A stretch of DNA of 59,370 nt from Rhizobium sp. Q54 (GTDB lineage: Bacteria; Pseudomonadota; Alphaproteobacteria; Rhizobiales; Beijerinckiaceae): positions 1 through 59,370 of the forward strand of contig CAMDKB010000001.1 in assembly GCA_945901195.1 (NCBI GenBank), written 5' to 3'. Of the stretch, positions 308 through 56,769 are shown one piece after another. The notes under the pieces are model-generated. The model had not been told where the DNA came from. It saw only the letters and a list, made by a program, of their open reading frames with translations, and ran no database searches. Within the stretch, counting starts at the first letter, position 1. Every line of letters starts with the position of its first letter. The position numbers and the translations under genes were made by a program.

Positions 308-1057
308 TTAAAACGCCAGACGCGCATCCAGAATGCCGTAACCGCCAGGGCCGGCGCGGCGATCGTTAACATATCCACCCGAGACTCCGATCTGCATCGG
401 ACCGAATTTTGCCCCTGTTACATGAGCGCCTACACGCCATTGGCTGTAAAAACTGTCGCCAAGAAACAAGACTTCTGGACCAACAAATATTTTTTCTGTA
501 ACCGCCAACCCTGCCTTGAAGCGTGTGTAGTAGGCGTTATTAACGGTTGAGTAAGTGATGTTACCCGACGCCATCGTATATGATGTCGGGTTCATGTAGA
601 AATCGAACGAGGTTTTGAAGCCATAGGAAGTTCCCACAACCTTGTTGGAAGGGTCGGGCTTAGACAGCGTCCGGTTCTGTACGTCTGCTCCTAAATAAAG
701 AGCGAAAGTCGCATTCTTGGCGACCCACTCATAGCCGGCCATGAGATTGCCGCTTGTCTCGTCGCCTTTCACCTGGCCAACGCCGGGCGATGTAGATGTA
801 TAAGTGTATGTGCCAAGGAGGCCGCCAATGCGCAGGCGGGCGCCAGACTCGTCCAGCTTGCTGAAGGGCGCAATTGTACCGATGAGTCCGCCATGCATGG
901 AGCCTTTGCTTGTGCCGCTTAATGAAGCGTCGATAGACGCGCCATAGTTAGCTTCGGGTGTCTGACTGCGCGCGCCGGTATACCATTCCTGGGCGACACC
1001 CGGACCACTCAGGGAAACTGTCACTGAAATCGCGATTACGCAAACACCGGTACGCAT
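308..1057 (-). CDS. bcsS: Cellulose biosynthesis protein BcsS-like outer-membrane beta-barrel
   Basis: Signal peptide, amphipathic beta-strands, C-terminal Phe; segments GARLRIGG..G.Y.Y, PDPSN, GPEV.FLG...Y.QWRVGAHVTG resemble the BcsS family. Confidence 0.7.
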   Translation of the reverse strand: MRTGVCVIAISVTVSLSGPGVAQEWYTGARSQTPEANYGASIDASLSGTSKGSMHGGLIGTIAPFSKLDESGARLRIGGLLGTYTYTSTSPGVGQVKGDETSGNLMAGYEWVAKNATFALYLGADVQNRTLSKPDPSNKVVGTSYGFKTSFDFYMNPTSYTMASGNITYSTVNNAYYTRFKAGLAVTEKIFVGPEVLFLGDSFYSQWRVGAHVTGAKFGPMQIGVSGGYVNDRRAGPGGYGILDARLAF

Positions 1058-7373: not shown

Positions 7374-8150
7374 GTGAGCGATTACGATATAAAATCTGCG
7401 CTTATTAACGCCGTCAGGACCGGCGAGATATTCGTTCTGTACCAGCCTCAAGTACTGGCTTCTACAGGCGAGCTGGCTGGAGTGGAATGCCTTGTACGTT
7501 GGCGTCATCCTGAACGTGGAGTCTTGAAGCCAGCCCAGTTTATTCCCGTTGTCGAAGATGACGAGGAAATCATCCAAATGCTCGGGGGTTCAGTTTTACG
7601 GACGGCTTGCCGGGATGCAGCGGCTTGGCCTCACCTTTTCATTGGTGTGAACATCTCGCCGGTGCAGTTCAGGCTGCCTGGTCTTACCGGCGGTTTGGTC
7701 GCGATAGTGGAAGAGGCCGGATTCCCGTTTCATCGGATCGAACTTGAAATTCTGGAGACTTCGTATTTCGAGAACCCCGAACATATGCGCGATGTCCTTT
7801 CTGAGTTGCGAAAGCTCGGCATGGGCATTGCGCTGGACGATTTTGGCACCGGCTATTCTTCACTGGCTGCTTTGCTGGAATTGCCTTTGGACAAACTCAA
7901 GATCGACGCGCAGTTCGTTCGCAAGTTCAACGATATTCGCTCCGCTTCGGTGATACATGCCATCGTCGCGCTGGCACGGGCTATCGGCCTTAAAATCACG
8001 GCCGAAGGGGTTGAGACTGAGCAACAGCGTCTTTTTCTGCGCTCGTCGGGATGCCACTTCCTGCAGGGTTATCTATTCTCGCAACCCGTTGTTGCCGATG
8101 TCATCACGCAAATGATCTCTGCAGGCAAGGTCACACCGCGGGTAAACTGA
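7374..8150 (+). CDS. Stand-alone EAL-domain c-di-GMP phosphodiesterase
   Basis: YQPQ, ECLVRW, VNISP, ELEILE, DDFGTGYSS, KID, AEGVET and QGYLFS motifs; GTG start. Confidence 0.9.
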   Translation: MSDYDIKSALINAVRTGEIFVLYQPQVLASTGELAGVECLVRWRHPERGVLKPAQFIPVVEDDEEIIQMLGGSVLRTACRDAAAWPHLFIGVNISPVQFRLPGLTGGLVAIVEEAGFPFHRIELEILETSYFENPEHMRDVLSELRKLGMGIALDDFGTGYSSLAALLELPLDKLKIDAQFVRKFNDIRSASVIHAIVALARAIGLKITAEGVETEQQRLFLRSSGCHFLQGYLFSQPVVADVITQMISAGKVTPRVN

Positions 8151-8180
8151 CGTTCCACGTCCCTTGCTTGTCGCGTGATT

Positions 8181-9452
8181 TCAACGCTGCAGAGCTATTT
8201 CACTTGATAGCGGGCCCACGCCCTGGGGCACAGGCACTGTTGACGCCGAATAGTCCGAATTCAAGACCAGCGTCGGGCCTGCGGACATCTGGATCTTGTT
8301 GGCGACGATGATTGTGTAGGCGGATTTTTGAGCGACTGGCTTGTCACCGCCTACGTAGAGCCGTCCGCGCGGAAGGTAGATGGTTCCCAGCAAATTGGAC
8401 GCATCGTCGCTGGAGACTTCAAATTTTTCATTATCCACGATCGTAGCGCGGTCCTGATAAATTAACAGTCCCGTCATGTCGCCAGTTCTTGGCGCGCTCA
8501 GTGAAAGGCTGGAATTTTTTTTCATATCCATGCCCGCATTGATGCCGGTAAAGAACAGGCCGATATCTGTCCCGACCAGTCGCGATCCCCCGCCGATGAC
8601 CAAAGGCCCATCCTTGAATACGTAGATGCCGGGTTGCAGTGTAACCTGGGCATTCTTGTCAATTGTCAGGCCACCGCAATATGTGCCGGGCGTCAGGAAG
8701 GTGTCGATGCCAGCAATATATTTCTTTTCTTTGGAAGCTTCGCACGCGCCGACCACTGGAGGTGGTCTGGAAGCGAGCGGATCGGGGAAATTAGGGCAAT
8801 CGATATCAGGCGTAGGAGAGAACGTTCCCCCTCCGGATTTGAAACCACCTGCCGAGCAGGTGAAGGCGGATGTAAGCGTCGCGGAGTCGCGCGCTTCCAA
8901 CCCGTTTACAGACTTGCTGTTGCTGTAAACTGCGCATTTCGGTGCTTCTACCCGCGCCAATTTTTCCAGATCGAAAGTCGAAGGATCCTTTTCGTTCAGG
9001 GCCACAGCGCACACCGGCGCTCCACCCATGATACGTGCAGTGGCGGTGACAGAAATGGCGGACTTAGCCAACCCTGCAGCAACGCCAAGCCCTGCGGAGG
9101 CGTCGGAATTCAGATTGACAGTAATTGTGCGCTTGTCGGCGCCGACTGATCCGCTGAAATTATAGTTGATGTTCTGATTGCTTGCGCCCGCAGCCACAAT
9201 ATTTTGCGCGACCCCGAGGATAGTGGTGTCTTTGGCGTTCCCCAGCCGCATTTCCCGTGCTGCGCCAACCGCAGCGCTGTCCGCCAGCGTTTGCAGTTTG
9301 GCTTGCATCGAAGAGGAGTGAGACATTTCGACTGCCACAACGCTTACGGCCACGAGGCCCGGAAGAGCAATGGCAGCAATCAATCCAACGTTTCCTGAGG
9401 CATCCCAGGCGAACGCGGTCAGATCCGCGAGCCATTTTTTTCGTTTATGCAT
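8181..9452 (-). CDS. TadE/TadG-like pilus assembly protein with extended C-terminal beta-rich domain
   Basis: N-terminal SGNVGLIAAIAL hydrophobic helix and KLQTLADSAAVGAA Tad motif; PGTYCGG and PGIYVF segments; start uncertain (9452 overlaps the upstream stop). Confidence 0.75.
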   Translation of the reverse strand: MHKRKKWLADLTAFAWDASGNVGLIAAIALPGLVAVSVVAVEMSHSSSMQAKLQTLADSAAVGAAREMRLGNAKDTTILGVAQNIVAAGASNQNINYNFSGSVGADKRTITVNLNSDASAGLGVAAGLAKSAISVTATARIMGGAPVCAVALNEKDPSTFDLEKLARVEAPKCAVYSNSKSVNGLEARDSATLTSAFTCSAGGFKSGGGTFSPTPDIDCPNFPDPLASRPPPVVGACEASKEKKYIAGIDTFLTPGTYCGGLTIDKNAQVTLQPGIYVFKDGPLVIGGGSRLVGTDIGLFFTGINAGMDMKKNSSLSLSAPRTGDMTGLLIYQDRATIVDNEKFEVSSDDASNLLGTIYLPRGRLYVGGDKPVAQKSAYTIIVANKIQMSAGPTLVLNSDYSASTVPVPQGVGPLSSEIALQR

Positions 9453-9900
9453 GGTCGCCATCGTCATGGAGGACGGCATGAGCGCGCATGACATATTTGA
9501 TCTGATAGCTCAGCAGGCGCCAGTTCACAGGCTTTGTGACGAACGATGTGGCGCCGGCGCGATAGGCCGCGTCTATTGTTGCGATGCCTTCGTGCCCGGT
9601 GATCATTATAATGGGCAGCTTTGCGAATTTGCTTTCAGCCCGCATCGCCTTGATCAGTTCAACACCATCCATGCCCGGCATCTCAAAATCCACAAGCACG
9701 ATATCAAAGTGCTCCTTGTGAAGACGCTTCAACGCCCGTTCCGCCGTAGGGACCGCGATCACTTGGGCCGCAGGTGTCGTCAGATAAACTGTGGCAAACT
9801 CGCGCTGAATGGGGTCATCATCGACAACGAGCATACGAACACTCGCTTCGAGTACATGGGTGTAACTCGTTTCGCTGGTTTCGATCATGACCGGTGACAT
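9445..9900 (-). CDS. Single-domain response regulator (REC)
   Basis: VVDDD, DFEMPGMDG, ITG and FVTKP; start uncertain. Confidence 0.85.
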   Translation of the reverse strand: MSPVMIETSETSYTHVLEASVRMLVVDDDPIQREFATVYLTTPAAQVIAVPTAERALKRLHKEHFDIVLVDFEMPGMDGVELIKAMRAESKFAKLPIIMITGHEGIATIDAAYRAGATSFVTKPVNWRLLSYQIKYVMRAHAVLHDDGDHA

Positions 9901-10022
9901 TGGGTTGGGGCACATGAGCCATTTATAGGCCTGGAAAGCTAACAGATGCTTGAAATTCACGATTAATGAAATGATTAGATATTTAGGTTCAACTGTTTAA
10001 TCCATCATCACGAAAGTTCGCC

Positions 10023-12713
10023 ATGCAGCTTTTGAGAGCCCTGTCTATCCGGATCAAATTAATCGCATTGGTTTCCCTTGCTGTTCTGGGCGCACAAATC
10101 TTCATTTCATGTGTATTGCTCTGGCAGGAGGCGAGCCGTTATGGCTTGGCCAAACGCGATTCCATGCTGTCTGCTGCACAGGTCTTGTCGGCGGGAGTCG
10201 CGCCGGCGGTGGTGAGCGGAAATCGCTTGGAAATCCGGACGGTATTGAGGGCCATCGGTCGAATTCCTGGACTACTTTACGTGGGTGTGGAGGATGCCAG
10301 CGGGCGTGAACTCACTGATCTCGGCGCAACAGAACAATTGGTTCGCGATCTCAAGTTTTCGACGCACGAGGCAGAAGCTATGCCACTAAGGGCATTATTG
10401 CGGAGCCGTACAGCGGAACTGGAAGTCCCTATAGTCTCGGGCGGTTTGACTGTGGGTCGTTTACGACTTGTTAGCGATACATCAGATTTGCCCGCCCAGT
10501 TATGGTCGGCTCTGAGCGTTACATTCTACGGCGCGCTGGTTGCGCTCGTGCTGGCTTTGCTGATTGCGTTGCGGCTTCAGCGTTCGATCACACGCCCGTT
10601 GACGATGCTGACGCGATCGATGGCGCGGGTTGGCTCACATCACGATTATTCCACAGAACTCAAAAGTCAGGGCAATGATGAAATCAGCGTTCTTGTGCGT
10701 GGGTTCAACACCATGATTGCCGATATTCGCGAGCGTGACGGGAAGCTCGCCCGGCATCGCGAGAATCTGGAACAAGAAGTAATCGAACGTACGCAAGATT
10801 ACCGCGACGCGCGCGACGCAGCCGAGGCTGCGAATAATGCCAAATCAGATTTCCTGGCGACCATGAGCCACGAAATTCGCACGCCAATGAATGGTATTCT
10901 CGTGATGGCCGATCTTCTGGCGGGCGGCGATCTGCCGCCGCGATCCCGGCGCTATGCTGAGGTCATCGCGCGCTCTGGGCAGAGCCTGGTTGCGATCATC
11001 AACGACATTCTGGATTTTTCGAAAATTGAAGCCGGCAAACTTGATGTCGAACAGCTGGCGGTTGAAGCAGCAGACTGCGCTGAAAACGCGGTCAATCTTT
11101 TTGGCGAAAGAGCGCAATCGAAAAGGCTTGATCTCATTGCGCGGATTGATGTGGACGCGCCGCAATACGCCGTCGCAGATCCGGTTCGTCTCAATCAGGT
11201 GCTTGCCAATCTCGTCAACAATGCATTGAAGTTTACCGAAGCAGGCTCGGTGACTCTGCGCGTAGGTCAATCGTCTGGCCGGGTTGTCTTCAGTGTCAGC
11301 GATACGGGAATAGGCATTGCCGCAGACAAGATCACATCCATATTCAGCGCATTCTCGCAAGCCGATCAGACGACCACGCGGCGCTTTGGCGGCACCGGGC
11401 TAGGGCTTTCCATTGCCCAGAGGCTGGTGTCGGCCATGGGGGGTGAGATCACGGTGACAAGTCAGTTGGGCAAAGGGTCCGTCTTCAGCTTCTCGTTGCC
11501 TGCTGCTCAGGACTCACAGGCAAGCGCCTGGCCGCTTCTGACGGATATATCGCGGAAACAGGCGTTGATCTGTGTCAGCGGGCAAGCGACGTGTGACGCC
11601 CTGAGTTATTATCTTGTTCAGGCAGGCTTTGATGTCAGCGTAGCATCAACCGAAACATTCGCCACGCAGGTGCGAACCGCAGGTTTGATTGCTGCGGGGG
11701 TCAAGGAGCTCGAGTCGCTTGAGGAGAATGCAGTCAGAGGCGGAGCAACCATTATAGCGCTTGCCGGGCTGGGCGAGGCGGGCCTTGAGAGGCTTGAGGC
11801 AAGGGGTCTGGCCCATGTCTGTCTGGAAGTGCCCTTGTCTCGTCAGGATATCTGTGCGGTTTTGCAAGCGGTATGTGAAGGTCGGCCAGTGAAGCAGGCC
11901 AACAAGTCTACATGGGAGGCAGGCAAGGATGTGCAGTTCCCGGGCGCACGTGTCCTTGTAGTGGATGATGGCGCTGTCAATCGCGAAGTGGCGCAGGAAG
12001 CGCTCCGGCGTTTTGGGATCATTGCAGAACTTGCTTGCGATGGTCTTGAAGCCGTCAGTCTTTGCGCGAGTCATGACTACGATATCGTGCTGATGGATGG
12101 CAGCATGCCGGGTATGGACGGATTTGAAGCAACACGCAAAATCCGAGGCCGGGAGAGCGAAGCTGGTTCCCAAAGGCAAATCATTGTCGCGGTCACAGCG
12201 CATGTAGTGGGCCGCGCGGCCGATGGCTGGCGCGAATGTGGAATGGATGGCGTGTTGCACAAGCCGTTTACAATGGCTTCGATGACGGCTTGTCTCAGCC
12301 AGTTCCTGACCGGGCAAGCGGCAGCCAACCAAACCACGCAATCCACATTCGATGCTGGCGATGGGGTCCTTGATTTTGCGCTGGTGGAGCAATTGCGGGA
12401 TATGGCTGCATTGGGGCGAAGCGATTTCGTGCTTCGCGTGTCGGCGCTTTATCGCGATCACGCACCATCTGCCCTGGCGGACATCGAAGCGGCTTGGGCG
12501 GTTCAGGATATGCAGGCTCTAAGCAAAGCAGCACACGCCTTGAAATCAATGAGCTATAATGTGGGCGCCAAACGAGTGGGCCTTCTGGCGGATGAACTGG
12601 AACTGCAGGCGGGTGGTTCACACATGGCCGACGCTGACACACAAATAAAAAGCCTCCGCGAAGCTATCGCAGAGGCCTGTTCCGAATTGGCTGCCATTGC
12701 TCTGGCGGCCTGA
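10023..12713 (+). CDS. Hybrid sensor histidine kinase (periplasmic sensor-HAMP-HisKA-HATPase-degenerate REC-REC-Hpt)
   Basis: Two TM helices, HAMP, FLATMSHEIRTPMNG, NALKFT, DTGIGI, GGTGLGL, VVDD..DGSMP..KP, AHALKS Hpt. Confidence 0.92.
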   Translation: MQLLRALSIRIKLIALVSLAVLGAQIFISCVLLWQEASRYGLAKRDSMLSAAQVLSAGVAPAVVSGNRLEIRTVLRAIGRIPGLLYVGVEDASGRELTDLGATEQLVRDLKFSTHEAEAMPLRALLRSRTAELEVPIVSGGLTVGRLRLVSDTSDLPAQLWSALSVTFYGALVALVLALLIALRLQRSITRPLTMLTRSMARVGSHHDYSTELKSQGNDEISVLVRGFNTMIADIRERDGKLARHRENLEQEVIERTQDYRDARDAAEAANNAKSDFLATMSHEIRTPMNGILVMADLLAGGDLPPRSRRYAEVIARSGQSLVAIINDILDFSKIEAGKLDVEQLAVEAADCAENAVNLFGERAQSKRLDLIARIDVDAPQYAVADPVRLNQVLANLVNNALKFTEAGSVTLRVGQSSGRVVFSVSDTGIGIAADKITSIFSAFSQADQTTTRRFGGTGLGLSIAQRLVSAMGGEITVTSQLGKGSVFSFSLPAAQDSQASAWPLLTDISRKQALICVSGQATCDALSYYLVQAGFDVSVASTETFATQVRTAGLIAAGVKELESLEENAVRGGATIIALAGLGEAGLERLEARGLAHVCLEVPLSRQDICAVLQAVCEGRPVKQANKSTWEAGKDVQFPGARVLVVDDGAVNREVAQEALRRFGIIAELACDGLEAVSLCASHDYDIVLMDGSMPGMDGFEATRKIRGRESEAGSQRQIIVAVTAHVVGRAADGWRECGMDGVLHKPFTMASMTACLSQFLTGQAAANQTTQSTFDAGDGVLDFALVEQLRDMAALGRSDFVLRVSALYRDHAPSALADIEAAWAVQDMQALSKAAHALKSMSYNVGAKRVGLLADELELQAGGSHMADADTQIKSLREAIAEACSELAAIALAA

Positions 12714-37414: not shown

Positions 37415-39922
37415 ATGAGACGGCGGCGTCGCTTTGGTAACGTTTGGCCGTTCGCGTCACGAGATGCGAGCCGCTGGACGATGAGTTCACTTTGTAAGAC
37501 GCGTATTTCCGGCGCTACGGCTTGCGTCATGCTGACGGCTGAAATGGCGTCAGCGGCAGAAGGATTGACAGCATTCGAGACGATGAAGGATACGCAGGGC
37601 ATTGCTGGCGTATCGGTCGTTGTCGCGCTTGTCATATTTTCGGCCAGCACAGCTATTCTGCACCTGACAGGGCGGCGCAGATGGACGCAGCGTGAAGAGC
37701 AGCTGACCAGTGATCTTGGCACAACCCGCAACGCACTTGATCGTGCAAATCTTTTTCTGTCTGCCGAACCGCAGATCGTAATCGCATGGGGCTCTGCTTC
37801 TGGTGAACCTGATATCGAGGGTGATCTGTCGCTTGTCATGGACGTGCCCGTGCCCCGGCGTGTGCTCGGCTTTGGTTCGTGGCTTACGCCTGACTCTGCC
37901 CAGAAGATCGAGCAATGTGTCGAACGCCTGCGCAGCCGGGGCGAGGGCTTTCGGCTGCCGCTTGTGAGCATCGCAGGCCGTCACATGGAAGCAGAGGGCC
38001 GGGCTGTTGGCGGGCGCGCTGTCATGCGTGTGCGCGACGTATCCGGCGACCGGCTTGAGCTGACGCAATTGCGCGAGCGTCACGCCAAAGCCTTGACCGA
38101 TGTAGAGACGCTCAAGACGCTCCTTGATGCAATACCCGACCCAGCCTGGACCCGCGATCAAGACCACAAGCTGGTTTGGGCGAATGCTGCTTTCGCCCGC
38201 GCTGTCGAAGCTGCGAATGGCGTTGAAGCTGTTGCAAAAGGCAACGAACTACTTGATGCGGGCTCACGTGCTCTGGCTATGGAACACCGCGCGAAAAGCG
38301 CGATCTGGCACGCACGGCTGCCGGCGGTTGTCGCCGGTCAACGACACCTTATGGAGATTTTCGATCTTCCCACAAATGGTGGTTCAGCGGGAATGGCGCA
38401 TGATCTTGCCGAACTTGAAGAAATTCGCAGAGATTTTGGTCGCCAGATGGAATCGCATGGGCGAACGCTTGATCAATTAAAAACAGCAGTAGCCATATTC
38501 GATGGCAAGAAGCGGCTGGTGTTTCACAACGCCGAATATCGCCGGCTTTGGTCCCTCGACGCGGCATTTCTTGATCAACGGCCAACGGATTCGGAAATTC
38601 TCGATCACCTCAGGGCGCAACGTAGACTGCCCGAGCAGGTTGACTTCAGGAGCTGGAAAGACTCGCTTCTTGCAGCCTATCACACCAATGATATGTCCGA
38701 ACAAGTTTGGCACCTGCCCGACGGACGTACATTGCGTGCAGTTCTCAATCCCAACCCGCAGGGCGGCATAACCTATCTCTATGATGATGTGACTGAACGT
38801 TATCATATAGAGTCCCAGTACAATGCGTTGATCCGCGTGCAAGGGGAAACGCTCGATACCTTGAAAGAAGGCGTCGCTGTTTTTGGTCCCGATGGGCGGT
38901 TGAAGCTCTACAATCCAGCATTTGCAAGCCAATGGCGGCTTGAAGAAGATAACCTCATTGATGAGCCGCACATCGATCAAGTCTTGCACCTGTGCACGCC
39001 GCTTGATGAGGATGCGAGGAACTGGTCGCAATTGCGGTCAATCGTTGCGGGCCTTCACGATACGCGCACTAGCTATGATCTTCGCATATATTGCAGCAAC
39101 GATCTGATCCTTGACGCAACGACCGCGCCGCTCTCGGATGGCGCGACCCTGCTCACCTTCACCGATGTCACCGCTGATGTAAAACACGCACGGGCTGTTG
39201 AAGAAGGTCAAAGACTTCGTGATGATTTCGTGCACCATGTTTCTTACGAGTTGCGCTCGCCACTTACCAATATCATTGGCTATGCGGAACTGCTTGGCGG
39301 TGAAAGCGTAGGGCCGCTGAACCCGAAACAGCGCGAGTATTCCGGTCACGTGCTGAAATCGTCCGCCGCGTTACTTGCCATCATCAACGATATTCTTGAT
39401 CTTGCAACCATCGACAACGATGGAATGGAATTGGCCTTGCAGGACGTCGACGTTGAAAAAACGATCGCCTCAGCGGTCGAAGGCGTTCAGGACAGATTGT
39501 CGGAAGCTGATATCAAGCTGAACGTGGTGGTCCCCAAGGACATTGGCGACTTTCACGCAGACGCCAATCGGGTTCGACAGGTCCTGTTCAACTTGCTGTC
39601 CAACGCCATTGGCTTTTCTTCGCCGGGGCAAACAGTCACCTTGGCGGCCTTGCGGCGTGGCGACCAGATGGTTTTCAAGATTACTGACCAGGGCCGGGGT
39701 ATACCAGCCGACGTTATCGCGCACGTCTTTGATCGTTTTCAAAGTCAGACTGTTGGATCGCGTCACCGTGGCGTTGGCCTTGGACTTTCCATCGTGCGTT
39801 CATTTGTCGAGCTGCATGGGGGTACAGTCACTGTCGATTCGGTGGCTGGCGAAGGCACTGTCGTCACGTGCATCTTTCCGGCCAATTGCGCGCAATTGCC
39901 GGTTGCCAGCCAAACTGCATGA
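37415..39922 (+). CDS. divL: DivL-like PAS-domain pseudo-histidine kinase
   Basis: Multiple PAS domains; H-box reads VSYELRSPL (Tyr instead of His); conserved position between ahcY and tsaE; start uncertain. Confidence 0.85.
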   Translation: MRRRRRFGNVWPFASRDASRWTMSSLCKTRISGATACVMLTAEMASAAEGLTAFETMKDTQGIAGVSVVVALVIFSASTAILHLTGRRRWTQREEQLTSDLGTTRNALDRANLFLSAEPQIVIAWGSASGEPDIEGDLSLVMDVPVPRRVLGFGSWLTPDSAQKIEQCVERLRSRGEGFRLPLVSIAGRHMEAEGRAVGGRAVMRVRDVSGDRLELTQLRERHAKALTDVETLKTLLDAIPDPAWTRDQDHKLVWANAAFARAVEAANGVEAVAKGNELLDAGSRALAMEHRAKSAIWHARLPAVVAGQRHLMEIFDLPTNGGSAGMAHDLAELEEIRRDFGRQMESHGRTLDQLKTAVAIFDGKKRLVFHNAEYRRLWSLDAAFLDQRPTDSEILDHLRAQRRLPEQVDFRSWKDSLLAAYHTNDMSEQVWHLPDGRTLRAVLNPNPQGGITYLYDDVTERYHIESQYNALIRVQGETLDTLKEGVAVFGPDGRLKLYNPAFASQWRLEEDNLIDEPHIDQVLHLCTPLDEDARNWSQLRSIVAGLHDTRTSYDLRIYCSNDLILDATTAPLSDGATLLTFTDVTADVKHARAVEEGQRLRDDFVHHVSYELRSPLTNIIGYAELLGGESVGPLNPKQREYSGHVLKSSAALLAIINDILDLATIDNDGMELALQDVDVEKTIASAVEGVQDRLSEADIKLNVVVPKDIGDFHADANRVRQVLFNLLSNAIGFSSPGQTVTLAALRRGDQMVFKITDQGRGIPADVIAHVFDRFQSQTVGSRHRGVGLGLSIVRSFVELHGGTVTVDSVAGEGTVVTCIFPANCAQLPVASQTA

Positions 39923-41490
39923 TGGAGCCGCGCCACCGCATGAAAACTGCCGGACAAAATGAAGATCTGAATTCATCTGTGTGGTGGCTGGATCTTCCGG
40001 ATGAAGCGGCGACGGCAGCGCTTGCGCGGCATATTTCGGAACTCGTAACTTCAGGAGATCTGCTCACTCTGTCAGGCGATCTTGGTGCAGGTAAAACCAG
40101 TTTTGCAAGAGCACTGATCCGCCACATCTGCCGTGATGAAGAACTGGAAGTGCCAAGCCCAACTTTCACGCTGATGCAAATTTACAGCGGCCCGTCGTTT
40201 CCTGTTGTTCATGCAGATCTCTATCGCATCAAGTCTGCAGACGAACTGGTTGAATTGGGCTGGGATGAAGCTGCAGAAGGCGCTCTGGTCATAGTCGAAT
40301 GGCCTGATCGAGCGGGCGACAAGTTGCCGCTGGACAGGCTTGATATTGCCCTTTTTGTCGAGCCTGCACAGGGCGATACCTGGCGGCGTGCGAAGCTCAC
40401 AGGCCATGGCGCGTTTGCGCAAAAGCTTGCCCGCGCCAAAGGGATTGATCGACTGCTGGTTCGCGCTGGCTGGGCGGACGCCCGCCGCAGCTTCATGCTG
40501 GGTGACGCCTCCAGCCGTGCCTATGAGCGGTTGCAAAAGCCTGATGGCCAGCAGGCCGTGTTGATGATTTCGCCGCCACGACCGGACGGCCCGCCTGTGC
40601 GCTACGGCAAGCCGTATAGTGCGATTGCGAGGCTTGCCGAAGATATACGGCCTTTTATCGCTGTGGCCGAAGCGCTGCGTGCTCAGGATTTGTCGGCGCC
40701 CAATATCCATGCCGCCGATCTTGAGACGGGGCTTGCGATCATTGAGGATCTGGGAAGCGATCCGTTCGTCGACGCAAAGGGTCCGATAGCTGAAAGATAT
40801 GGTGAAGCCGTGGCGGTGCTGGCAAAATTGCACAGCACGCAATTGCCGGAAGCAATACCGCTTGGAGCGGATACCTATCGAATCCCGCCTTACGATATTG
40901 ACGCCCTGATTATCGAAGTTGAACTACTGACAGAATGGTACACGCAACACGCGTCCATTCATCTTTCATCGGGTGCGGCGGCCACGTTCATCAATCTCTG
41001 GCGTGCCGTATTAAAGGAAATGGTCGATGGACCGAAGACATGGGTTTTACGCGATTATCATTCGCCAAATCTGATCTGGCTTGCAGACCGCGAGGGATTG
41101 CAGCGGGTGGGCATTATCGATTTTCAGGATTGTGTCATGGGTTCGCCAGCCTATGATGTGGCTTCGCTTCTGCAGGATGCCCGGGTCACGGTACCCAATG
41201 AGCTTGAGCTCAAGCTTTTGTCGCACTATGCCCGTCAACGCCTTGCACGCGATCCGCAATTCGACATGAGTTTGTTTGCGCGTGCTTATGCCATCATGGC
41301 TGCGCAAAGAGCCACAAAAATCTTGGGGATTTTTGCGCGCCTGGACCGGCGTGACCGCAAGCCGCAATATCTGGCGCATATGCCGCGAATTCAGAATTAT
41401 CTTGCTAAGAGTCTCCAGCATCCGGCATTATCTGAATTGAAAATCTGGTACGAAACGTATTTGCCGGCGGTATTCGGCGCCGGATCCTGA
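39919..41490 (+). CDS. tsaE: Fused TsaE ATPase / AmgK-like phosphotransferase
   Basis: GDLGAGKT, SPTF, HADLYR, EWP followed by GDAS.R.Y.R, RDYHSPN, DFQD; ATGA overlap with divL. Confidence 0.9.
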   Translation: MMEPRHRMKTAGQNEDLNSSVWWLDLPDEAATAALARHISELVTSGDLLTLSGDLGAGKTSFARALIRHICRDEELEVPSPTFTLMQIYSGPSFPVVHADLYRIKSADELVELGWDEAAEGALVIVEWPDRAGDKLPLDRLDIALFVEPAQGDTWRRAKLTGHGAFAQKLARAKGIDRLLVRAGWADARRSFMLGDASSRAYERLQKPDGQQAVLMISPPRPDGPPVRYGKPYSAIARLAEDIRPFIAVAEALRAQDLSAPNIHAADLETGLAIIEDLGSDPFVDAKGPIAERYGEAVAVLAKLHSTQLPEAIPLGADTYRIPPYDIDALIIEVELLTEWYTQHASIHLSSGAAATFINLWRAVLKEMVDGPKTWVLRDYHSPNLIWLADREGLQRVGIIDFQDCVMGSPAYDVASLLQDARVTVPNELELKLLSHYARQRLARDPQFDMSLFARAYAIMAAQRATKILGIFARLDRRDRKPQYLAHMPRIQNYLAKSLQHPALSELKIWYETYLPAVFGAGS

Positions 41491-50986: not shown

Positions 50987-53134
50987 ATGCCGCTGATCGT
51001 CATCGTAGACGACCGGGTCAGCAACCGGAATATTTTTGCAAAGCTTGCGGCCTCCATAGAGGCTGACATTACCGTGCGCACATTTGGGGAGCCCTTGAGC
51101 GCCCTGGAATGGCTCAAGGACAATACCCCGGATCTGGTTATTACCGATTACAAGATGCCTAATTTCGATGGCGCGGAGTTCATCAGCCGTTTCAGGCTTC
51201 TGTCACATTGCGAAGAAGTTCCGGTGATCGTGATCACTGTTTATCAGGAACGGATATTCCGGCTTTGTGCGCTGGAGGCCGGCGCGACTGACTTTCTGCA
51301 CTCTCCGGTCGATCATCATGAGTTTGTCACGCGCGCGCGCAATCTCCTGAAGCTTCATAAACATCAACTGTTGCTGGCAGACCGCGCCAACATGCTTGAG
51401 CAGGAGCTGGTGAATTCTGAACGTACGCATGAACTTGCGTTGCGCGACTCCAGTGAACGTCTGGCTCAGGTTATCGATACGGTTCCCGCCATGATCCGCG
51501 CCACGGACAAGGATGGGAAGCTCCTTTTCGTAAACGCTTATCAGGCCGCTTTTGACGGTGTGGATGCAGCGACGATAATTGGCAATCATTCGGAAGCAGT
51601 TCATGGCCAGGAGCGAAGCGCGCGCGACGCAGCTCTCGACAAGATTGTATTTGAAACCGGCAAGGCGTTGCCTTCGTTTGAAGAGGACTTGTTGGACGTC
51701 AATGGCGCCACACGGGTGTTTCTGACGACCAAATCACCCTTGAAATCAAATAATGAGGCTATCTCGGGTGTTCTTACAAGTTCACTCGATATATCCGCCC
51801 GAAAGCGCATGGAAGCCCATTTGCGACATCAGGCGCATCACGATCAGTTGACGGGTCTGCCCAATCGCGTTCTTTTGAATGAAAGAATGCGCAAGTTGGT
51901 GGCGCGCGCCAGACGTGGGGATCAATTGTTTGCATTGCATACGATCGATTTTGATGGGTTTAAGGCGATCAATGATCTTCTTGGACATGCTGCAGGAGAT
52001 CGGTTCATCGAGGCCATTTCGAAGCGTCTTCAATCGTCCATGCGCGATTGTGATACGCTCGCGCGCGTAGGGGGCGACGAATTCGCTGTCTTGCAATCGG
52101 ATGTGTCCGATACGCAGGATGCAGCTGAATTTGCAATCAGGCTACTTTCGATTGTCGAACAAAGCGCAGACCTTGAAGATATTCCACTTTCAATCACAGC
52201 TTCAATCGGCATCGCGATTCACCCTGCCGATGGGGCCGACGCCGAATCGTTGCTGAGGAATTCTGATCTCGCCATGTACCGGGCGAAGGCCGAAAAAGGC
52301 AGTCACTTTTGCTTCTATGCTTCGGATATGACCTTACGGGCACGGCAGCTTGTAGTTCTTGACAAGCGCCTGCAGAGAGCTTTCGAAAATGGCGAATTCA
52401 TACTCCACTATCAACCGCAGGTAGACGTCGCCAGCGGCAAGTTGATTGGCGCAGAAGCCCTGTTACGCTGGCAAGATCCAGAGCACGGATTAATCGGGCC
52501 AAATATGTTTCTTCCCCACGCAGAAGAAAACGGCCTGATCGTTCCGATCAATGAATGGGTCCTTCAAAAGGCTTGTGAAGACGCAAAGGGATGGCAGCGG
52601 TTCGGGCTCGAAAATATATGTGTGAGCGTGAACATGTCGCCGATACAATTCCGGCGGCGCACTGTTCCCCTTCATGTCGCACGCGTGCTTGCCAGCACCG
52701 GCCTTGAGCCGAGGTTGCTCGACATCGAGCTGACCGAAGGTATAGTCATGAGCAGTATAGACACAGTGATTGCAGACATGCAGCACCTTGTTAATCTGGG
52801 AATCGGAATATCCATAGACGATTTCGGGACGGGTTATTCATCGTTGAGTTACGTGAAAAAACTTCCCGTCAGCAGATTGAAGATCGATCAGAGTTTCATC
52901 AAGAATCTTGCCACAGATCTCAGTGATGCGGCAATTGTCCGGGCCATCATCACCTTGGGTCGTAGTCTGAACCTGAAAGTGCTCGCCGAAGGTGTGGAAA
53001 CAGCCGAACTATTCGCGCGTCTTCAGGCAGAAGGCTGCGATCAGGCACAGGGATATTATTTCGGCAGGCCTATCAGCAACGACGGATTTATCGAAGCGTT
53101 CGGGAATATCTCAAGGTTGTCAAAATCGGTATGA
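50987..53134 (+). CDS. REC-PAS-GGDEF-EAL c-di-GMP response regulator with RpfG-like receiver
   Basis: IVDD..DYKMP REC; PAS; DFDGFKAIND, RDCD I-site, GGDEF; EALLRW, DDFGTGYSS, AEGVE; ATGA overlap with the downstream kinase. Confidence 0.92.
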   Translation: MPLIVIVDDRVSNRNIFAKLAASIEADITVRTFGEPLSALEWLKDNTPDLVITDYKMPNFDGAEFISRFRLLSHCEEVPVIVITVYQERIFRLCALEAGATDFLHSPVDHHEFVTRARNLLKLHKHQLLLADRANMLEQELVNSERTHELALRDSSERLAQVIDTVPAMIRATDKDGKLLFVNAYQAAFDGVDAATIIGNHSEAVHGQERSARDAALDKIVFETGKALPSFEEDLLDVNGATRVFLTTKSPLKSNNEAISGVLTSSLDISARKRMEAHLRHQAHHDQLTGLPNRVLLNERMRKLVARARRGDQLFALHTIDFDGFKAINDLLGHAAGDRFIEAISKRLQSSMRDCDTLARVGGDEFAVLQSDVSDTQDAAEFAIRLLSIVEQSADLEDIPLSITASIGIAIHPADGADAESLLRNSDLAMYRAKAEKGSHFCFYASDMTLRARQLVVLDKRLQRAFENGEFILHYQPQVDVASGKLIGAEALLRWQDPEHGLIGPNMFLPHAEENGLIVPINEWVLQKACEDAKGWQRFGLENICVSVNMSPIQFRRRTVPLHVARVLASTGLEPRLLDIELTEGIVMSSIDTVIADMQHLVNLGIGISIDDFGTGYSSLSYVKKLPVSRLKIDQSFIKNLATDLSDAAIVRAIITLGRSLNLKVLAEGVETAELFARLQAEGCDQAQGYYFGRPISNDGFIEAFGNISRLSKSV

Positions 53135-55740
53135 GAGAGAAGACAATGCAAACGGCCACCGGAATAAATCAGGAGCCTACCGTAGTCGCCAGCACCGGCG
53201 TCTTTTCGCGAATACGCAATCGCCTCAGAAATCGTCCGGATTCCGAACATGAAATGACACTGAACCGTCTGGTCAACAACATTGTTGTTCTGACGTACTT
53301 CGCTGTCGCCAGTTATCTTGAAGTCAAGGAAGCTGAACATGTCCTAGCGCAAACGCTTGTACTGTTCGTAGCCTACAATCTGGCTTCCATCGCCTTATTC
53401 TTGCATATCTTGCATCGTCCTGGCGTGTCGATACCAAGGCGTTTGCTGGCGATGATCATGGATCTAAGCATGATTTGCTACGTCATGCATGTTGGGGATC
53501 ATGCAACGGCGCTGCTTTATCCATTTATTCTTTGGACCATTTTTGGAAACGGCTTTCGATTTGGGCGCAAATATCTATTGCTTGCGACTGTGGTTTCGCT
53601 TGCCGAATTTGGCGCCGTCGTCGCCACCACCGAGTTTTGGTCTGCTTATCCCGCTCTCACGACCGGTCTCATGATCGGATTGATCATTCTTCCTGCGTAT
53701 GTGTCAGTCCTTATTCACAAGTTGTCGGAAGCACGTGATCAGGCCGAATCTGCAAATCGTGCAAAAAGCCTGTTTTTGGCGAGCATCAGTCACGAACTTA
53801 GAACCCCGTTGACTGCAATCATTGGATTGAGCGATGTATTACGCCAAACCGGATTGAACATTGAACAAACAGATATGAACGAGACGATCTCTCAAGCAGG
53901 CAATTCACTTCTTGCACTGATAAATTCAATTCTTGATCTTTCCAGACTTGAAGTCGGGAAAATGCCAAAACAATTACAGGATGTCGATATATATCGATTG
54001 ATGCATCGGACATATGATCTTTTAAAGGTCCCGGCGAGAGCCAAAGGAATTCACATTTCTTTGCACATTCAGAACGATGTTCCGCGATTTGTAATGGCGT
54101 CATTGAAACATATTGAAGATTCAATAATCAATTTGGCCAGCAATGCGGTCAAATTCACTGAACGTGGATTCGTCACAATCAGTGTGTTGCATGTCTCAAA
54201 TACAGAACATTCGCACACCCTGAGATTTGAAGTGAGCGATTCGGGCATAGGAATTTCACCGGAAGCACAATCGAGGATATTCGAACGGTTTACGCAAGCT
54301 GATGAGACGATCGTGAACAAATTCGGCGGGACAGGGCTGGGGCTGGCTACCGTCAAGCAGATGATCGAAGATATTGATGGCTCTGTGGCTGTCACCAGTT
54401 CTGTCGGAAAAGGCAGCGTATTCTGGTTCGATGTGACATTTGCATCTTCGGCCAACGTGAAATTGCAAGATCGAAAACTTCACGATGTCATTCTGTTGTC
54501 AACAGATATGAAGCTTCACTCAAAGATCGAGGAAGCAGGAATTGATGCAGTTACTGTCGGCACGCTCAGTGAATGTTGTGACAAGATTGCAGAGATGCGC
54601 GGTGCGAAAAGTCACGATCTCGTCACTTTTGTGGACTTTCGAGACGTGGGGTCTGATATCGAATTGATCGTCAGTCAGCTTTCTAACGACAAGAAAGCCG
54701 CTATGCCCAAACTGATTATTGTAGCTGACAACACCGAATCGCTCGACACTGGAATTATCCGGCAATATGCTTCGACAGTCCTGGTGCGCCCCTTGGAAAT
54801 GGCGTCGATCGAGAATGCGCTCGTCATCGCCTCCGGCCCGCGTTCGAACCATGACAGCGTTCTGGAAAGTGAGAACTCTCTGGAGAGCATCATTCCTCGG
54901 CGTATTCTTTTGGCAGATGACAACAAGACAAATCAAAAGGTGATCACGAAAATTCTGGAGAGGGCTGGCCATCGCGTTACGGTGGTGGATAACGGACAAA
55001 CCGCACTTGCCACTATGCAAGAATTTGCCTTCGATATCGCCTTTCTTGATGTGAATATGCCCGTTTTGAGTGGCGTGGAGGCAGCAAAGCTTTATCGGTT
55101 CACCACGGCCGGATCTGATTGTGTTCCAATCGTAGCGCTTACCGCCGATGCAACGGCCGAGACCCGGAAGCAATGTCTCGAGGCGGGCATGGTGGAGTGC
55201 CTGTTGAAGCCTATTGAGCCGCAAGTTCTTCTGGGGGCAGTTTCCAGAATCACTGATGCTAATCCAATCGTCAATTTGTCAGTGGGTGAAAGTACGAGGG
55301 TTGAAGCAGCAGCGCCAATGTCGCAAATTGATTTCATTGATATGCACGCTGTCAATGATCTTATAGAACTGGGTGGCAAGGAATTTGCGCTAGACATAGT
55401 TTTGCAATTTGCAGCCGATGGCAACAAGGTTATGCTCGAATTAGTGCAAGCGGTGGCTACCGGTAATGCTGCTCATTTTGCCGATCAGGTTCATGCCCTC
55501 AGGAGCGGGGCGGCCAATGTTGGGGCGCAGCAGGTGTTCAAAATGTGTCAGACCTGGCGCCAGGTTTCGTCCGCCGAACTAAACGAGAATGGAGAAGTTT
55601 ATCTGCGGGAGTTCTCACGGGAGTTCGAATTTGCGGTGCTAGAACTGCAAAAAATGCTCTTGAACGTTGAAAACATTCGGTCAGAGAAAGAAACTGCGGC
55701 ACGCGAGCCGTATGATCCAAAAAATTCGCGGGCCGCCTGA
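53131..55740 (+). CDS. rpfC: RpfC-like hybrid sensor kinase (5TM-HisKA-HATPase-degenerate REC-REC-Hpt)
   Basis: N-terminal RL.NRPDSEH, about 5 TMs with W...GNGFRFG, SHELRTPL, GGTGLGL, ADD..DVNMP..KP, HALRS Hpt; convergent with rpfF. Confidence 0.82.
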   Translation: MREKTMQTATGINQEPTVVASTGVFSRIRNRLRNRPDSEHEMTLNRLVNNIVVLTYFAVASYLEVKEAEHVLAQTLVLFVAYNLASIALFLHILHRPGVSIPRRLLAMIMDLSMICYVMHVGDHATALLYPFILWTIFGNGFRFGRKYLLLATVVSLAEFGAVVATTEFWSAYPALTTGLMIGLIILPAYVSVLIHKLSEARDQAESANRAKSLFLASISHELRTPLTAIIGLSDVLRQTGLNIEQTDMNETISQAGNSLLALINSILDLSRLEVGKMPKQLQDVDIYRLMHRTYDLLKVPARAKGIHISLHIQNDVPRFVMASLKHIEDSIINLASNAVKFTERGFVTISVLHVSNTEHSHTLRFEVSDSGIGISPEAQSRIFERFTQADETIVNKFGGTGLGLATVKQMIEDIDGSVAVTSSVGKGSVFWFDVTFASSANVKLQDRKLHDVILLSTDMKLHSKIEEAGIDAVTVGTLSECCDKIAEMRGAKSHDLVTFVDFRDVGSDIELIVSQLSNDKKAAMPKLIIVADNTESLDTGIIRQYASTVLVRPLEMASIENALVIASGPRSNHDSVLESENSLESIIPRRILLADDNKTNQKVITKILERAGHRVTVVDNGQTALATMQEFAFDIAFLDVNMPVLSGVEAAKLYRFTTAGSDCVPIVALTADATAETRKQCLEAGMVECLLKPIEPQVLLGAVSRITDANPIVNLSVGESTRVEAAAPMSQIDFIDMHAVNDLIELGGKEFALDIVLQFAADGNKVMLELVQAVATGNAAHFADQVHALRSGAANVGAQQVFKMCQTWRQVSSAELNENGEVYLREFSREFEFAVLELQKMLLNVENIRSEKETAAREPYDPKNSRAA

Positions 55741-55767
55741 GTAGATATCTGAAATGGATTTCTCGAT

Positions 55768-56769
55768 CTAGTTGGCGAGTCTTTTCATTTGTGCCTTCCC
55801 GAGAAGCTCCATGCGGCGGAGGTCCGGTTCTTCAAGATCGAGCGTCGTTTGGACCCAGATGTCGGTGATATCCTGGAGTTCCTTGAGCTCCAATGGTGAG
55901 GCGCGCCGTCTGGCATTGAGCATGGCGATATTGAGCCTGTGCCGACGTGCATTTTGATGAATATATTTCTGGATAACGGCGCGTCCTTCACCGGGATCAG
56001 CTAAAATGTCTACGATCCCCATTTCGTAGAGATCTTCGGCTTTGTAAATATTGCCACTCCGGATCATTTTCTCCGCGGCAGTTATGCTCAATCGCCTGCT
56101 CAGGAAGCTATAGGCTCCCATCCCGGGAAAAGAGCCGAACAGAATTTCCGGCATACCCATTTTTGAGCCGCGTTCAGCAACGATCAGGTTGAAACATATG
56201 ACGCCTTCGAGACCTCCTCCAAGTGCATCTCCTTCAACCAGACAAATGGACATTATCGGTAAATTAAAGCCGTGCCATATGTTGTGTACTGCTTCTACAC
56301 ATCCGAATGCATAGGCTCGTAAGGCCTCCCGGTCCTTGTTTCTTATTGCGTCAATCATGAAGGCCAGGTCGCCGCCCATATTATAGATGGCCGGGATCTT
56401 CGAACCCATCACATAATAGTTTATGGGTGCAATGGTGGAGCTGTCCGAATAAAAATCGTGAATTGATTTGTGGAGCGCATTGAGTTCTCGCACCATCGAC
56501 GGGGTGAAGCTCGGTGGACCCTTGGGCGCCATAAGGCACCAAAGTGCTTTTTGGTCCGGGTCGAGCTGTATTTCCAGCTCGGTGAATTTCGAGAATGGAA
56601 ACGTCAGGCTCGCAGGGAGCTGATCGCCATCACTTGGCGGTATTATAGAGTCTGCTATTGCCGAAGTGATTAAGCCTGATCGTATGGCTCCCGTGTTTCC
56701 CGTCGTTGAAGATACAAATCCAGCGTCTGCGGGTTCATGGAACCCGCCTGACTTTCTTATGTCCCACAT
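55768..56769 (-). CDS. rpfF: RpfF-like DSF synthase (crotonase superfamily)
   Basis: YNMGGDL, L..YA..CV, GDALGGGLE, GMPEILF..FPGMGAYSFL.RR, W...L.L...DLRRM..L..AQ; both catalytic Glu positions present. Confidence 0.85.
   Translation of the reverse strand: MWDIRKSGGFHEPADAGFVSSTTGNTGAIRSGLITSAIADSIIPPSDGDQLPASLTFPFSKFTELEIQLDPDQKALWCLMAPKGPPSFTPSMVRELNALHKSIHDFYSDSSTIAPINYYVMGSKIPAIYNMGGDLAFMIDAIRNKDREALRAYAFGCVEAVHNIWHGFNLPIMSICLVEGDALGGGLEGVICFNLIVAERGSKMGMPEILFGSFPGMGAYSFLSRRLSITAAEKMIRSGNIYKAEDLYEMGIVDILADPGEGRAVIQKYIHQNARRHRLNIAMLNARRRASPLELKELQDITDIWVQTTLDLEEPDLRRMELLGKAQMKRLAN

What the first reader, a model, noticed from the sequence alone, without database searches (positions are those of the whole stretch)
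50987..56769. Candidate DSF fatty-acid quorum-sensing system in an alphaproteobacterium, with a non-standard architecture
Seen: a regulator and a hybrid kinase coupled by an ATGA overlap, converging on a crotonase 27 bp away. The crotonase has RpfF-type motifs and both catalytic Glu; the kinase has RpfC-type DSEH, TM, REC and Hpt regions. Known: Xanthomonas has rpfG-rpfC convergent with rpfF (HD-GYP output); Burkholderia uses RpfF with RpfR (PAS-GGDEF-EAL). Inference: a complete synthase-sensor-effector module matching neither model, in a lineage mainly known for AHL signalling. I know of no characterised example but cannot search the literature.
Basis: partly seen in the sequence, partly recalled or inferred. 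Interest (0 to 1): 0.9.

Follow-up and report, generated by a model that had tools for sequence, protein, structure and literature searches.

The report
Alphaproteobacterial DSF relay with swapped output
Three adjacent genes match the Xanthomonas fatty-acid (DSF) cell-to-cell signalling locus, but the last protein keeps only the front end of RpfG and carries PAS-GGDEF-EAL domains instead, so it likely links a fatty-acid signal to cyclic di-GMP in many alphaproteobacteria, where I found no description of such a system.

Summary
The crotonase groups with RpfF synthases, not ordinary hydratases. The kinase is an RpfC with sensor motif R35-P-D-S-E-H-E-M42. The regulator is not a new gene and not RpfR. 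Its residues 4-164 align without gaps to RpfG (41%), and PAS-GGDEF-EAL replaces HD-GYP at exactly that point. This is the Xanthomonas layout with a swapped output. It is common: 28 of 401 order genomes carry all three genes. In other alphaproteobacterial orders the slot mostly holds REC-PAS-histidine kinase. Two oddities: the invariant receiver lysine is absent in 58 of 58 alphaproteobacterial regulators, and Xanthomonas Gln22, needed for DSF binding, is Met here. Relatives lacking rpfF keep the regulator beside a full RpfC or an Hpt-only remnant. No signal, binding or activity was measured. Eight literature searches found no description. The scan reported this architecture before on another genome (e1-2471808). 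Verdict: new variant of a known system; interest 0.5.

The parts
50987..53134 (+). Response regulator in the RpfG slot: REC - helical linker - PAS_4 - GGDEF - EAL (715 aa)
   Evidence: model pLDDT 86
50996..51478 (+). RpfG-derived receiver plus linker (aa 4-164); D8, D9, D54 and T84 kept
   Evidence: ungapped, 66 of 161 identical to Stenotrophomonas RpfG; receiver tree; motifs
51302..51304 (+). Ser106 in place of the invariant receiver Lys
   Evidence: Lys in 0 of 58 alphaproteobacterial regulators; Lys or Arg in 7 of 7 RpfG
51476..51808 (+). PAS_4 domain, ligand unknown
   Evidence: RpfR ligand residues not kept
51833..52300 (+). GGDEF domain, intact GGDEF (aa 362-366) with RxxD at 353-356
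52364..53071 (+). EAL domain, intact EAL, DDFGTGYSS and EGVE motifs
53131..53134 (+). ATGA stop/start overlap
53131..55740 (+). RpfC-type hybrid kinase: membrane input - HisKA (H221) - HATPase - poorly conserved ~155-aa insert (likely pseudo-receiver) - REC (D640) - Hpt (H788)
53233..53256 (+). Sensor motif R35-P-D37-S38-E39-H40-E-M42, matching Xanthomonas R15-Q22 with Gln changed to Met
   Evidence: residue roles from PMC5391125
53203..53730 (+). Membrane input domain, five or six hydrophobic helices
   Evidence: hydropathy; model pLDDT 93
55741..55767 (.). 27-bp gap between the converging stop codons
55768..56769 (-). RpfF-type DSF synthase homologue (E188, E208, G132, L183-G186, G216, M217, W305, L323), with a ~55-aa N-terminal extension

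Best explanation
This is an RpfF-RpfC-RpfG-type locus whose regulator keeps the RpfG receiver and linker but carries PAS-GGDEF-EAL; RpfF likely makes a DSF-family fatty acid, RpfC likely senses it, and RpfC would pass phosphate to the regulator to change cyclic di-GMP. Shown by sequence: the three proteins, their domains, intact catalytic and phosphorelay residues (RpfF E188/E208; RpfC H221, D640, H788; regulator D54, GGDEF, EAL), RpfG ancestry of the receiver, and conserved linkage. Inferred steps: (1) RpfF converts 3-hydroxyacyl-ACP to a cis-2-unsaturated fatty acid. (2) The acid binds the R35-M42 stretch before the first membrane helix and activates autophosphorylation; the Met at the Gln22 position may shift which acid is preferred. 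(3) Phosphate moves H221 to D640 to H788 to D54. (4) The linker helix and PAS retune the GGDEF-EAL pair, most likely towards degradation as in RpfG and RpfR (direction about 60:40). (5) The RpfC receiver may hold RpfF inactive at low signal; not tested.
For: RpfF: the four best PDB hits (two titled RpfF, one of them 3m6m) score E 5e-51 to 4e-49 against 6e-11 for the next crotonase. PRK08788 scores 330 bits, cut-off 177. All 138 RpfF-like rows, including the named Stenotrophomonas DSF synthase, split from 6 host crotonases at SH-aLRT 100. RpfC: 37% identical over 415 aa to a Xanthomonadaceae-type RpfC, input domain included; many relatives are named RpfC by their source; it is the only RpfC-type input domain in the genome; R15, D17, S18, E19 and H20 equivalents are kept, residues needed for DSF binding in PMC5391125 and bioRxiv 2022.01.03.474871. 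Regulator: RpfG homology ends where PAS begins; the 32 alphaproteobacterial receivers sampled form a clade (96) inside a clade (97) with RpfG and RpfG-like HD-GYP proteins, apart from the genome's other receivers. Xanthomonas RpfC phosphorylates RpfG Asp80, which aligns with D54. No HD-GYP gene was found in the genome (93.6% complete; control rang in 4 of 14). In 4 genus-mates without rpfF the kinase core is gone but the His-bearing Hpt stays next to the regulator.
Against: No experiment exists. The receiver lacks the invariant Lys (S106; 0 of 58 have Lys), which normally helps organise the active pocket (PMC4395418). Gln22 is Met; in Xanthomonas Q22A abolished binding and Q22E/Q22N reduced signalling. 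14 of 46 order genomes with this regulator have no rpfF, and 11 of those keep a full RpfC, so the sensor pair can persist without its own synthase. The curated RpfF equivalog scores 202 bits against a cut-off of 550. Rows of the RpfF tree were chosen by similarity to the query, so that clade is partly circular. 2 of 32 regulators of this type have degenerate GGDEF and EAL motifs.
Confidence: 0.6

Rival explanations
1. It is a DSF-family system, but the Lys-less receiver is not switched by stable phosphorylation. RpfC controls it by docking through the Hpt domain, or uses it as a short-lived phosphate sink.
For: Lys is absent in 58 of 58 regulators regardless of output type. Membrane-anchored Hpt-only or kinase-less remnants stay beside the regulator in 4 genus-mates with no cognate kinase. 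Atypical receivers that work without phosphorylation are known (PMC4395418).
Against: D8, D9 and D54 are invariant in 30 aligned regulators, as is T84. The remnants keep the Hpt His, which fits phosphate supplied by another hybrid kinase.
Confidence: 0.2
2. The RpfC-regulator pair senses another lipid or a membrane state, not the product of the neighbouring RpfF.
For: Gln22 is replaced in 29 of 32 sensors of this type. 10 of 13 genomes of one genus (identical proteins named Cohaesibacter) and one more genome keep RpfC and regulator without rpfF.
Against: rpfF lies next to rpfC at 58 alphaproteobacterial loci, convergent at 52 and divergent at 6. Pairwise identities of RpfF and the RpfC input domain rise together (Spearman 0.54, 31 loci; kin are not independent). 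In the window's genus rpfF and the kinase core are lost together in 4 of 4 cases.
Confidence: 0.12
3. The regulator binds DSF directly through its PAS domain, like Burkholderia RpfR.
For: It has the PAS-GGDEF-EAL order of RpfR; the profiles align as PAS folds (probability 92%).
Against: Identity is 17%. Positions matching RpfR S169, N172, R187 and N202 read D, L, E and T (my reading of the alignment; R187 and N202 from PMC6361424; mapping uncertain). There is no FI domain. The same PAS also precedes kinase outputs.
Confidence: 0.05
4. The crotonase is an ordinary beta-oxidation enzyme that lies next to a two-component pair by chance.
For: It is below the curated RpfF equivalog cut-off.
Against:: it is far closer to RpfF structures than to other crotonases, and the linkage is conserved across several orders.
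Confidence: 0.02

Closest known systems
Xanthomonas / Stenotrophomonas RpfF-RpfC-RpfG
   Same: Gene order (regulator, rpfC, convergent rpfF; PMC4504480; loci L122-L126); RpfF catalytic residues; RpfC input domain and phosphorelay sites; RpfG receiver and linker.
   Different: PAS-GGDEF-EAL instead of HD-GYP; receiver Lys lost; sensor Gln22 is Met; RpfC has about 155 residues between kinase and receiver against 41-52 in L122-L126; no conserved fourth gene (rpfB or rpfH) beside the locus.
Burkholderia / Cronobacter RpfF-RpfR
   Same: RpfF homologue linked to a PAS-GGDEF-EAL protein; c-di-GMP output.
   Different: RpfR is a one-component receptor with FI and DSF-binding PAS domains (PMC6361424). 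Here the enzyme starts with an RpfG-type receiver, has no FI domain, and a membrane kinase lies between it and rpfF.
Leptospirillum, Methylobacillus, Thiobacillus and Methylophaga rpfF-rpfG-rpfC clusters
   Same: RpfF with RpfC outside the xanthomonads (PMC4504480; PMC8357829).
   Different: These are described as keeping RpfG (HD-GYP stated for Leptospirillum, whose cluster is unidirectional).
   Same: The same architecture on another genome, also judged common and undescribed.
   Different: An unchecked AI note, not literature. The lines shown do not mention the Lys loss, Gln22 change, kinase-output sister type or synthase-less remnants.

Membership tests
RpfF DSF synthases | Crotonase closer to RpfF than to other enoyl-CoA hydratases | tested here: met
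   PRK08788 330 bits over cut-off 177
RpfF DSF synthases | Two catalytic Glu and pocket residues (Xanthomonas E141, E161, G85, L136-G138, M170, W258, L276) | tested here: met
   E188, E208, G132, L183-G185, M217, W305, L323, read from the alignments; residue list from PMC9864630
RpfF DSF synthases | Curated equivalog NF053515 cut-off | tested here: not met
   202 bits against 550
RpfF DSF synthases | Makes a cis-2-unsaturated fatty acid | not testable with these tools
   needs LC-MS
RpfC sensor kinases | Homologous membrane input domain with five helices | tested here: inconclusive
   Homology met. Count unsure: six hydropathy peaks; five long helices in the model, one of 44 residues
RpfC sensor kinases | HisKA-HATPase-REC-Hpt with phospho-sites | tested here: met
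   Hpt 24.3 bits, just under the Pfam cut-off, His present
RpfC sensor kinases | DSF-binding residues R15, D17, S18, E19, H20 | tested here: met
   R35, D37, S38, E39, H40
RpfC sensor kinases | DSF-binding residue Q22 | tested here: not met
   M42; Gln in 3 of 32 sensors of this type, 23 of 26 kinase-output type, 7 of 7 RpfG type
RpfC sensor kinases | Receiver domain binds and inhibits RpfF | not tested
RpfG | RpfG-type receiver and linker, encoded upstream of rpfC | tested here: met
RpfG | HD-GYP output domain | tested here: not met
RpfG | Canonical receiver pocket including the beta-5 Lys | tested here: not met
   S106
RpfR | N-terminal FI domain | tested here: not met
   profile from 7 RpfR-type loci hits nothing in the window or genome
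RpfR | DSF-binding PAS residues (R187, N202) | tested here: not met
   17% identity, so the mapping is uncertain

The most novel reading that the evidence does not exclude
Alphaproteobacteria carry their own branch of DSF signalling. An RpfG receiver that lost its invariant lysine became a plug-in adaptor, driving GGDEF-EAL in Hyphomicrobiales and a second histidine kinase in other orders. It is controlled through the RpfC Hpt in a non-canonical way and responds to a chemically distinct fatty acid matched to the Met at position 22. Synthase-less copies eavesdrop on neighbours, and Hpt-only remnants rewire the enzyme to other kinases.
Probability: 0.25. Interest if true: 0.75.

Novelty: new variant of a known kind. 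Interest (0 to 1): 0.5.

Why it matters
The reviews I read present two DSF circuits, RpfC-RpfG and RpfR (PMC4504480, PMC13220807). If this locus works as inferred, a third wiring exists in many non-pathogenic alphaproteobacteria, which could then join in or overhear fatty-acid signalling in mixed communities. Surveys that require RpfG or RpfR would score these genomes as having no receptor. It is testable now: identical proteins are recorded from named species such as Methylopila turkensis, M. capsulata, Hansschlegelia beijingensis, Oharaeibacter diazotrophicus and Lutibaculum baratangense. The family is also a natural test of how a receiver works without its invariant lysine. The limits: all parts belong to known families, output swaps are common in two-component systems (own knowledge), and the scan has seen this architecture before.

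Tried and rejected
RNA runs: none was listed; no evidence either way. Promoter and terminator scan: 7 and 5 sites against 7.1 and 6.1 expected, nothing above chance. LuxI search: none found, but the control rang nowhere, so inconclusive. A named-genome scan with the kinase returned only 1 locus. Recent horizontal transfer: weak. The genes have GC 0.48-0.52 against 0.57 for the genome, but nearby addB/addA have similarly low GC3, the pyrE-cysG site is shared with G016 and G004, and RpfF groups with genus-mates. A conserved fourth gene: none; the clusters were shadow frames or genus-level synteny. Feedback through the RpfC insert as in Caulobacter ShkA (PMC7010744 abstract in the listing; the DDR motif and the name of structure 6qrj are recalled): the insert is poorly conserved and shows no DDR at the aligned place; not supported. 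Homology of the type-B membrane domain to the RpfC input: none (probability 0.5%). Search of earlier scan findings by sequence: nothing.
Full report
Observation. The three frames, the ATGA overlap and the 27-bp gap are as described. Pfam gives REC-PAS_4-GGDEF-EAL, HisKA-HATPase-REC-Hpt behind a hydrophobic N-terminus, and a crotonase. The window is contig 1 of a 4.3-Mb genome, 93.6% complete. Its nearest relative carries a Beijerinckiaceae title. The genome holds one RpfF-like gene among 21 crotonase matches and one RpfC-type input domain.

Synthase. The four best solved structures score E 5e-51 to 4e-49; two are titled RpfF, and the next crotonase is at 6e-11. It passes PRK08788 (330 against 177 bits) and fails the strict RpfF equivalog (202 against 550). 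E188 and E208 are invariant in 58 alphaproteobacterial homologues. The pocket residues listed in PMC9864630 (passages) are kept. In a quick tree of 144 rows, 138 RpfF-like proteins split from 6 host crotonases at SH-aLRT 100. The 138 include a protein named Stenotrophomonas DSF synthase. The window's protein groups with genus-mates. The rows were picked by similarity to the query, so that split is partly circular.

Sensor. The kinase is 37% identical over 415 residues to a Xanthomonadaceae-type RpfC, input domain included, and many of the 120 listed relatives are named RpfC by their source. PMC5391125 (passages and section 8) and bioRxiv 2022.01.03.474871 (passages) identify R15, D17, S18, E19, H20 and Q22 as needed for DSF or BDSF binding. 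Here they are R35, D37, S38, E39, H40 and M42. Gln is kept in 3 of 32 sensors with GGDEF-EAL output, 23 of 26 with kinase output and 7 of 7 with RpfG. In the input-domain tree 29 of the first group and 3 of the second form a clade at 99. This is a real deviation: it may mean another ligand, or weaker DSF sensing. H221, D640 and H788 are present. About 155 poorly conserved residues lie between kinase and receiver, against 41-52 in five Xanthomonadaceae-type RpfCs.

Regulator. Residues 4-164 align without a gap to Stenotrophomonas RpfG 31-191 (66 of 161 identical). RpfG's HD domain starts at 187 and the PAS here at 164, so the swap point is the end of the linker helix. I searched 38 genomes with RpfG. 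Of the 31 alphaproteobacterial ones, 23 had a match. In 20 the only match was the N-terminus of the regulator beside rpfC, and 3 had a full-length RpfG-like gene elsewhere. In a receiver-only tree (86 rows; 15 of 32 GGDEF-EAL and 17 of 26 kinase-output regulators sampled; few columns) the alphaproteobacterial receivers form a clade at 96, inside a clade at 97 with 7 RpfG and 4 RpfG-like HD-GYP proteins. GGDEF and EAL motifs are intact here; 2 of 32 relatives are degenerate. No HD-GYP gene was found in the genome. The phospho-Asp D54 aligns with RpfG Asp80, the site RpfC phosphorylates in vitro. The invariant beta-5 Lys is Ser106. None of 58 alphaproteobacterial regulators has Lys there (50 have Ser), while 6 of 7 RpfG have Lys and 1 has Arg. 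PMC4395418 (passages) describes that Lys as part of the active pocket. The protein is not RpfR: it has no FI domain, and its PAS lacks the ligand residues of PMC6361424 (passages; alignment, 17% identity).

Distribution. In the order, 52 of 401 genomes have an RpfF match. I fetched 50 of the 51 other loci at full width; the last lies on a short contig. Of the 50, 22 have the window's layout, 6 a REC-PAS-kinase with rpfC, 16 a membrane-PAS-GGDEF-EAL gene, 1 is cut by a contig end and 5 stand alone. Four of those 5 have the regulator and rpfC elsewhere in the genome, and the cut one has the regulator on another contig. With the window that makes 28 genomes with all three genes. In the class sample 34 of 401 match. 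Of 31 loci from other orders, 20 have a kinase-output regulator, 3 GGDEF-EAL, 2 are cut and 6 show no partner, 3 of them at contig ends. No alphaproteobacterial locus had HD-GYP RpfG beside rpfC. Outside the class I fetched 36 of 45 matches: 7 RpfG type, 7 RpfR type, 18 rpfC with no adjacent rpfG, and 4 other. Kin are not independent, and these are samples.

Losses. The regulator's N-terminus occurs in 46 of 401 order genomes. Fourteen have no rpfF, confirmed with a profile that scored two positive controls at 4e-124 and 3e-88 against 3e-21 or weaker for these. Eleven of the 14 keep a full rpfC, and 13 belong to one genus whose proteins are named Cohaesibacter. In the window's genus 8 of 18 others have rpfF. 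I tested 5 of the 10 without it, and 4 keep the regulator. Three of these have only a short gene with a hydrophobic N-terminus and an Hpt after it; one has a kinase-less remnant. All keep the Hpt His. This ties Hpt to the regulator, and rpfF to the kinase core. It also shows that the pair can outlast the synthase.

Mechanism. Most likely (0.6) RpfF makes a DSF-family acid, RpfC senses it, and phosphate passes through Hpt to D54 to change c-di-GMP. By analogy with RpfG and RpfR (PMC4504480, passages; PMC13220807, passages) the level would probably fall. Every functional step is inferred. The rivals are non-canonical control of the Lys-less receiver (0.2), a different signal (0.12), direct PAS binding (0.05) and chance adjacency (0.02).

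Novelty. Searches found no paper on an RpfF-RpfC locus with this output, or on such a locus in these genera; I judged most hits from listings only. PMC8895600 (passages) notes from KEGG that alphaproteobacteria hold the RpfC-RpfG pair, without architecture. PMC12781772 (passages) found no alphaproteobacterial genome linked to both DSF/AHL synthase and receptor genes in its correlation analysis. PMC8357829 (passages) describes Leptospirillum with HD-GYP RpfG. The library lacks most subscription papers, and I read no supplements, which could list such loci. The scan's note e1-2471808 reported the architecture on another genome. It agrees with my reading but is not independent evidence. Verdict: a real, common and apparently undescribed variant of the Xanthomonas system; interest 0.5.

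Noticed in passing
L078:4801-7137, L087:4521-6851, L085:4708-7017, L012, L014 and similar loci: At 16 of 50 order loci and on 3 plasmids rpfF lies beside a protein with GGDEF-EAL behind several membrane helices and (in the four scanned) a PAS_7 domain. The membrane part resembles neither the RpfC input nor FI. It is a candidate undescribed DSF receptor.
   Followed up: partly
L097-L101, L103 and 20 loci among L158-L185: The RpfG slot holds REC-PAS-HisKA-HATPase: a second kinase behind the same Lys-less receiver (26 loci).
   Followed up: partly
L219:8131-8721, L220:6727-7413, L221:7360-8082, L222:7124-8590: Genus-mates without rpfF keep an Hpt-only gene with a hydrophobic N-terminus, or a kinase-less RpfC remnant, behind the regulator.
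   Followed up: yes
L223-L228, L234-L240, L229: Regulator with (11) or without (3) rpfC in genomes lacking rpfF, with diverged sensor motifs; possible eavesdroppers.
   Followed up: partly
L137-L157: In one family outside the class, 18 loci have rpfC and rpfF with no adjacent rpfG, and many change the sensor D-S to N-P.
   Followed up: no
window 7374-12713: A second signalling cluster: stand-alone EAL gene, Tad-like protein, single receiver and a HAMP hybrid kinase with Hpt. It is a possible source of cross-talk.
   Followed up: no
window 308-1057: Cellulose biosynthesis protein BcsS, a hint at a c-di-GMP-controlled output in this genome.
   Followed up: no
window 39868-41490: TsaE fused to a phosphotransferase domain, upstream of a nucleotidyltransferase and addB-addA; the usual alphaproteobacterial arrangement as I recall it.
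   Followed up: no
L013:8013-8963, L015:7995-8921: Bosea plasmids carry a lone rpfF-like gene with no sensor within 8 kb.
   Followed up: no
L193, L194, L195: Three order genomes with this locus also hold a full REC-HD-GYP RpfG-like gene elsewhere.
   Followed up: partly
window 56605-56769: RpfF has a ~55-residue N-terminal extension missing from the Xanthomonadaceae-type proteins; it is present in the nearest relative too.
   Followed up: no
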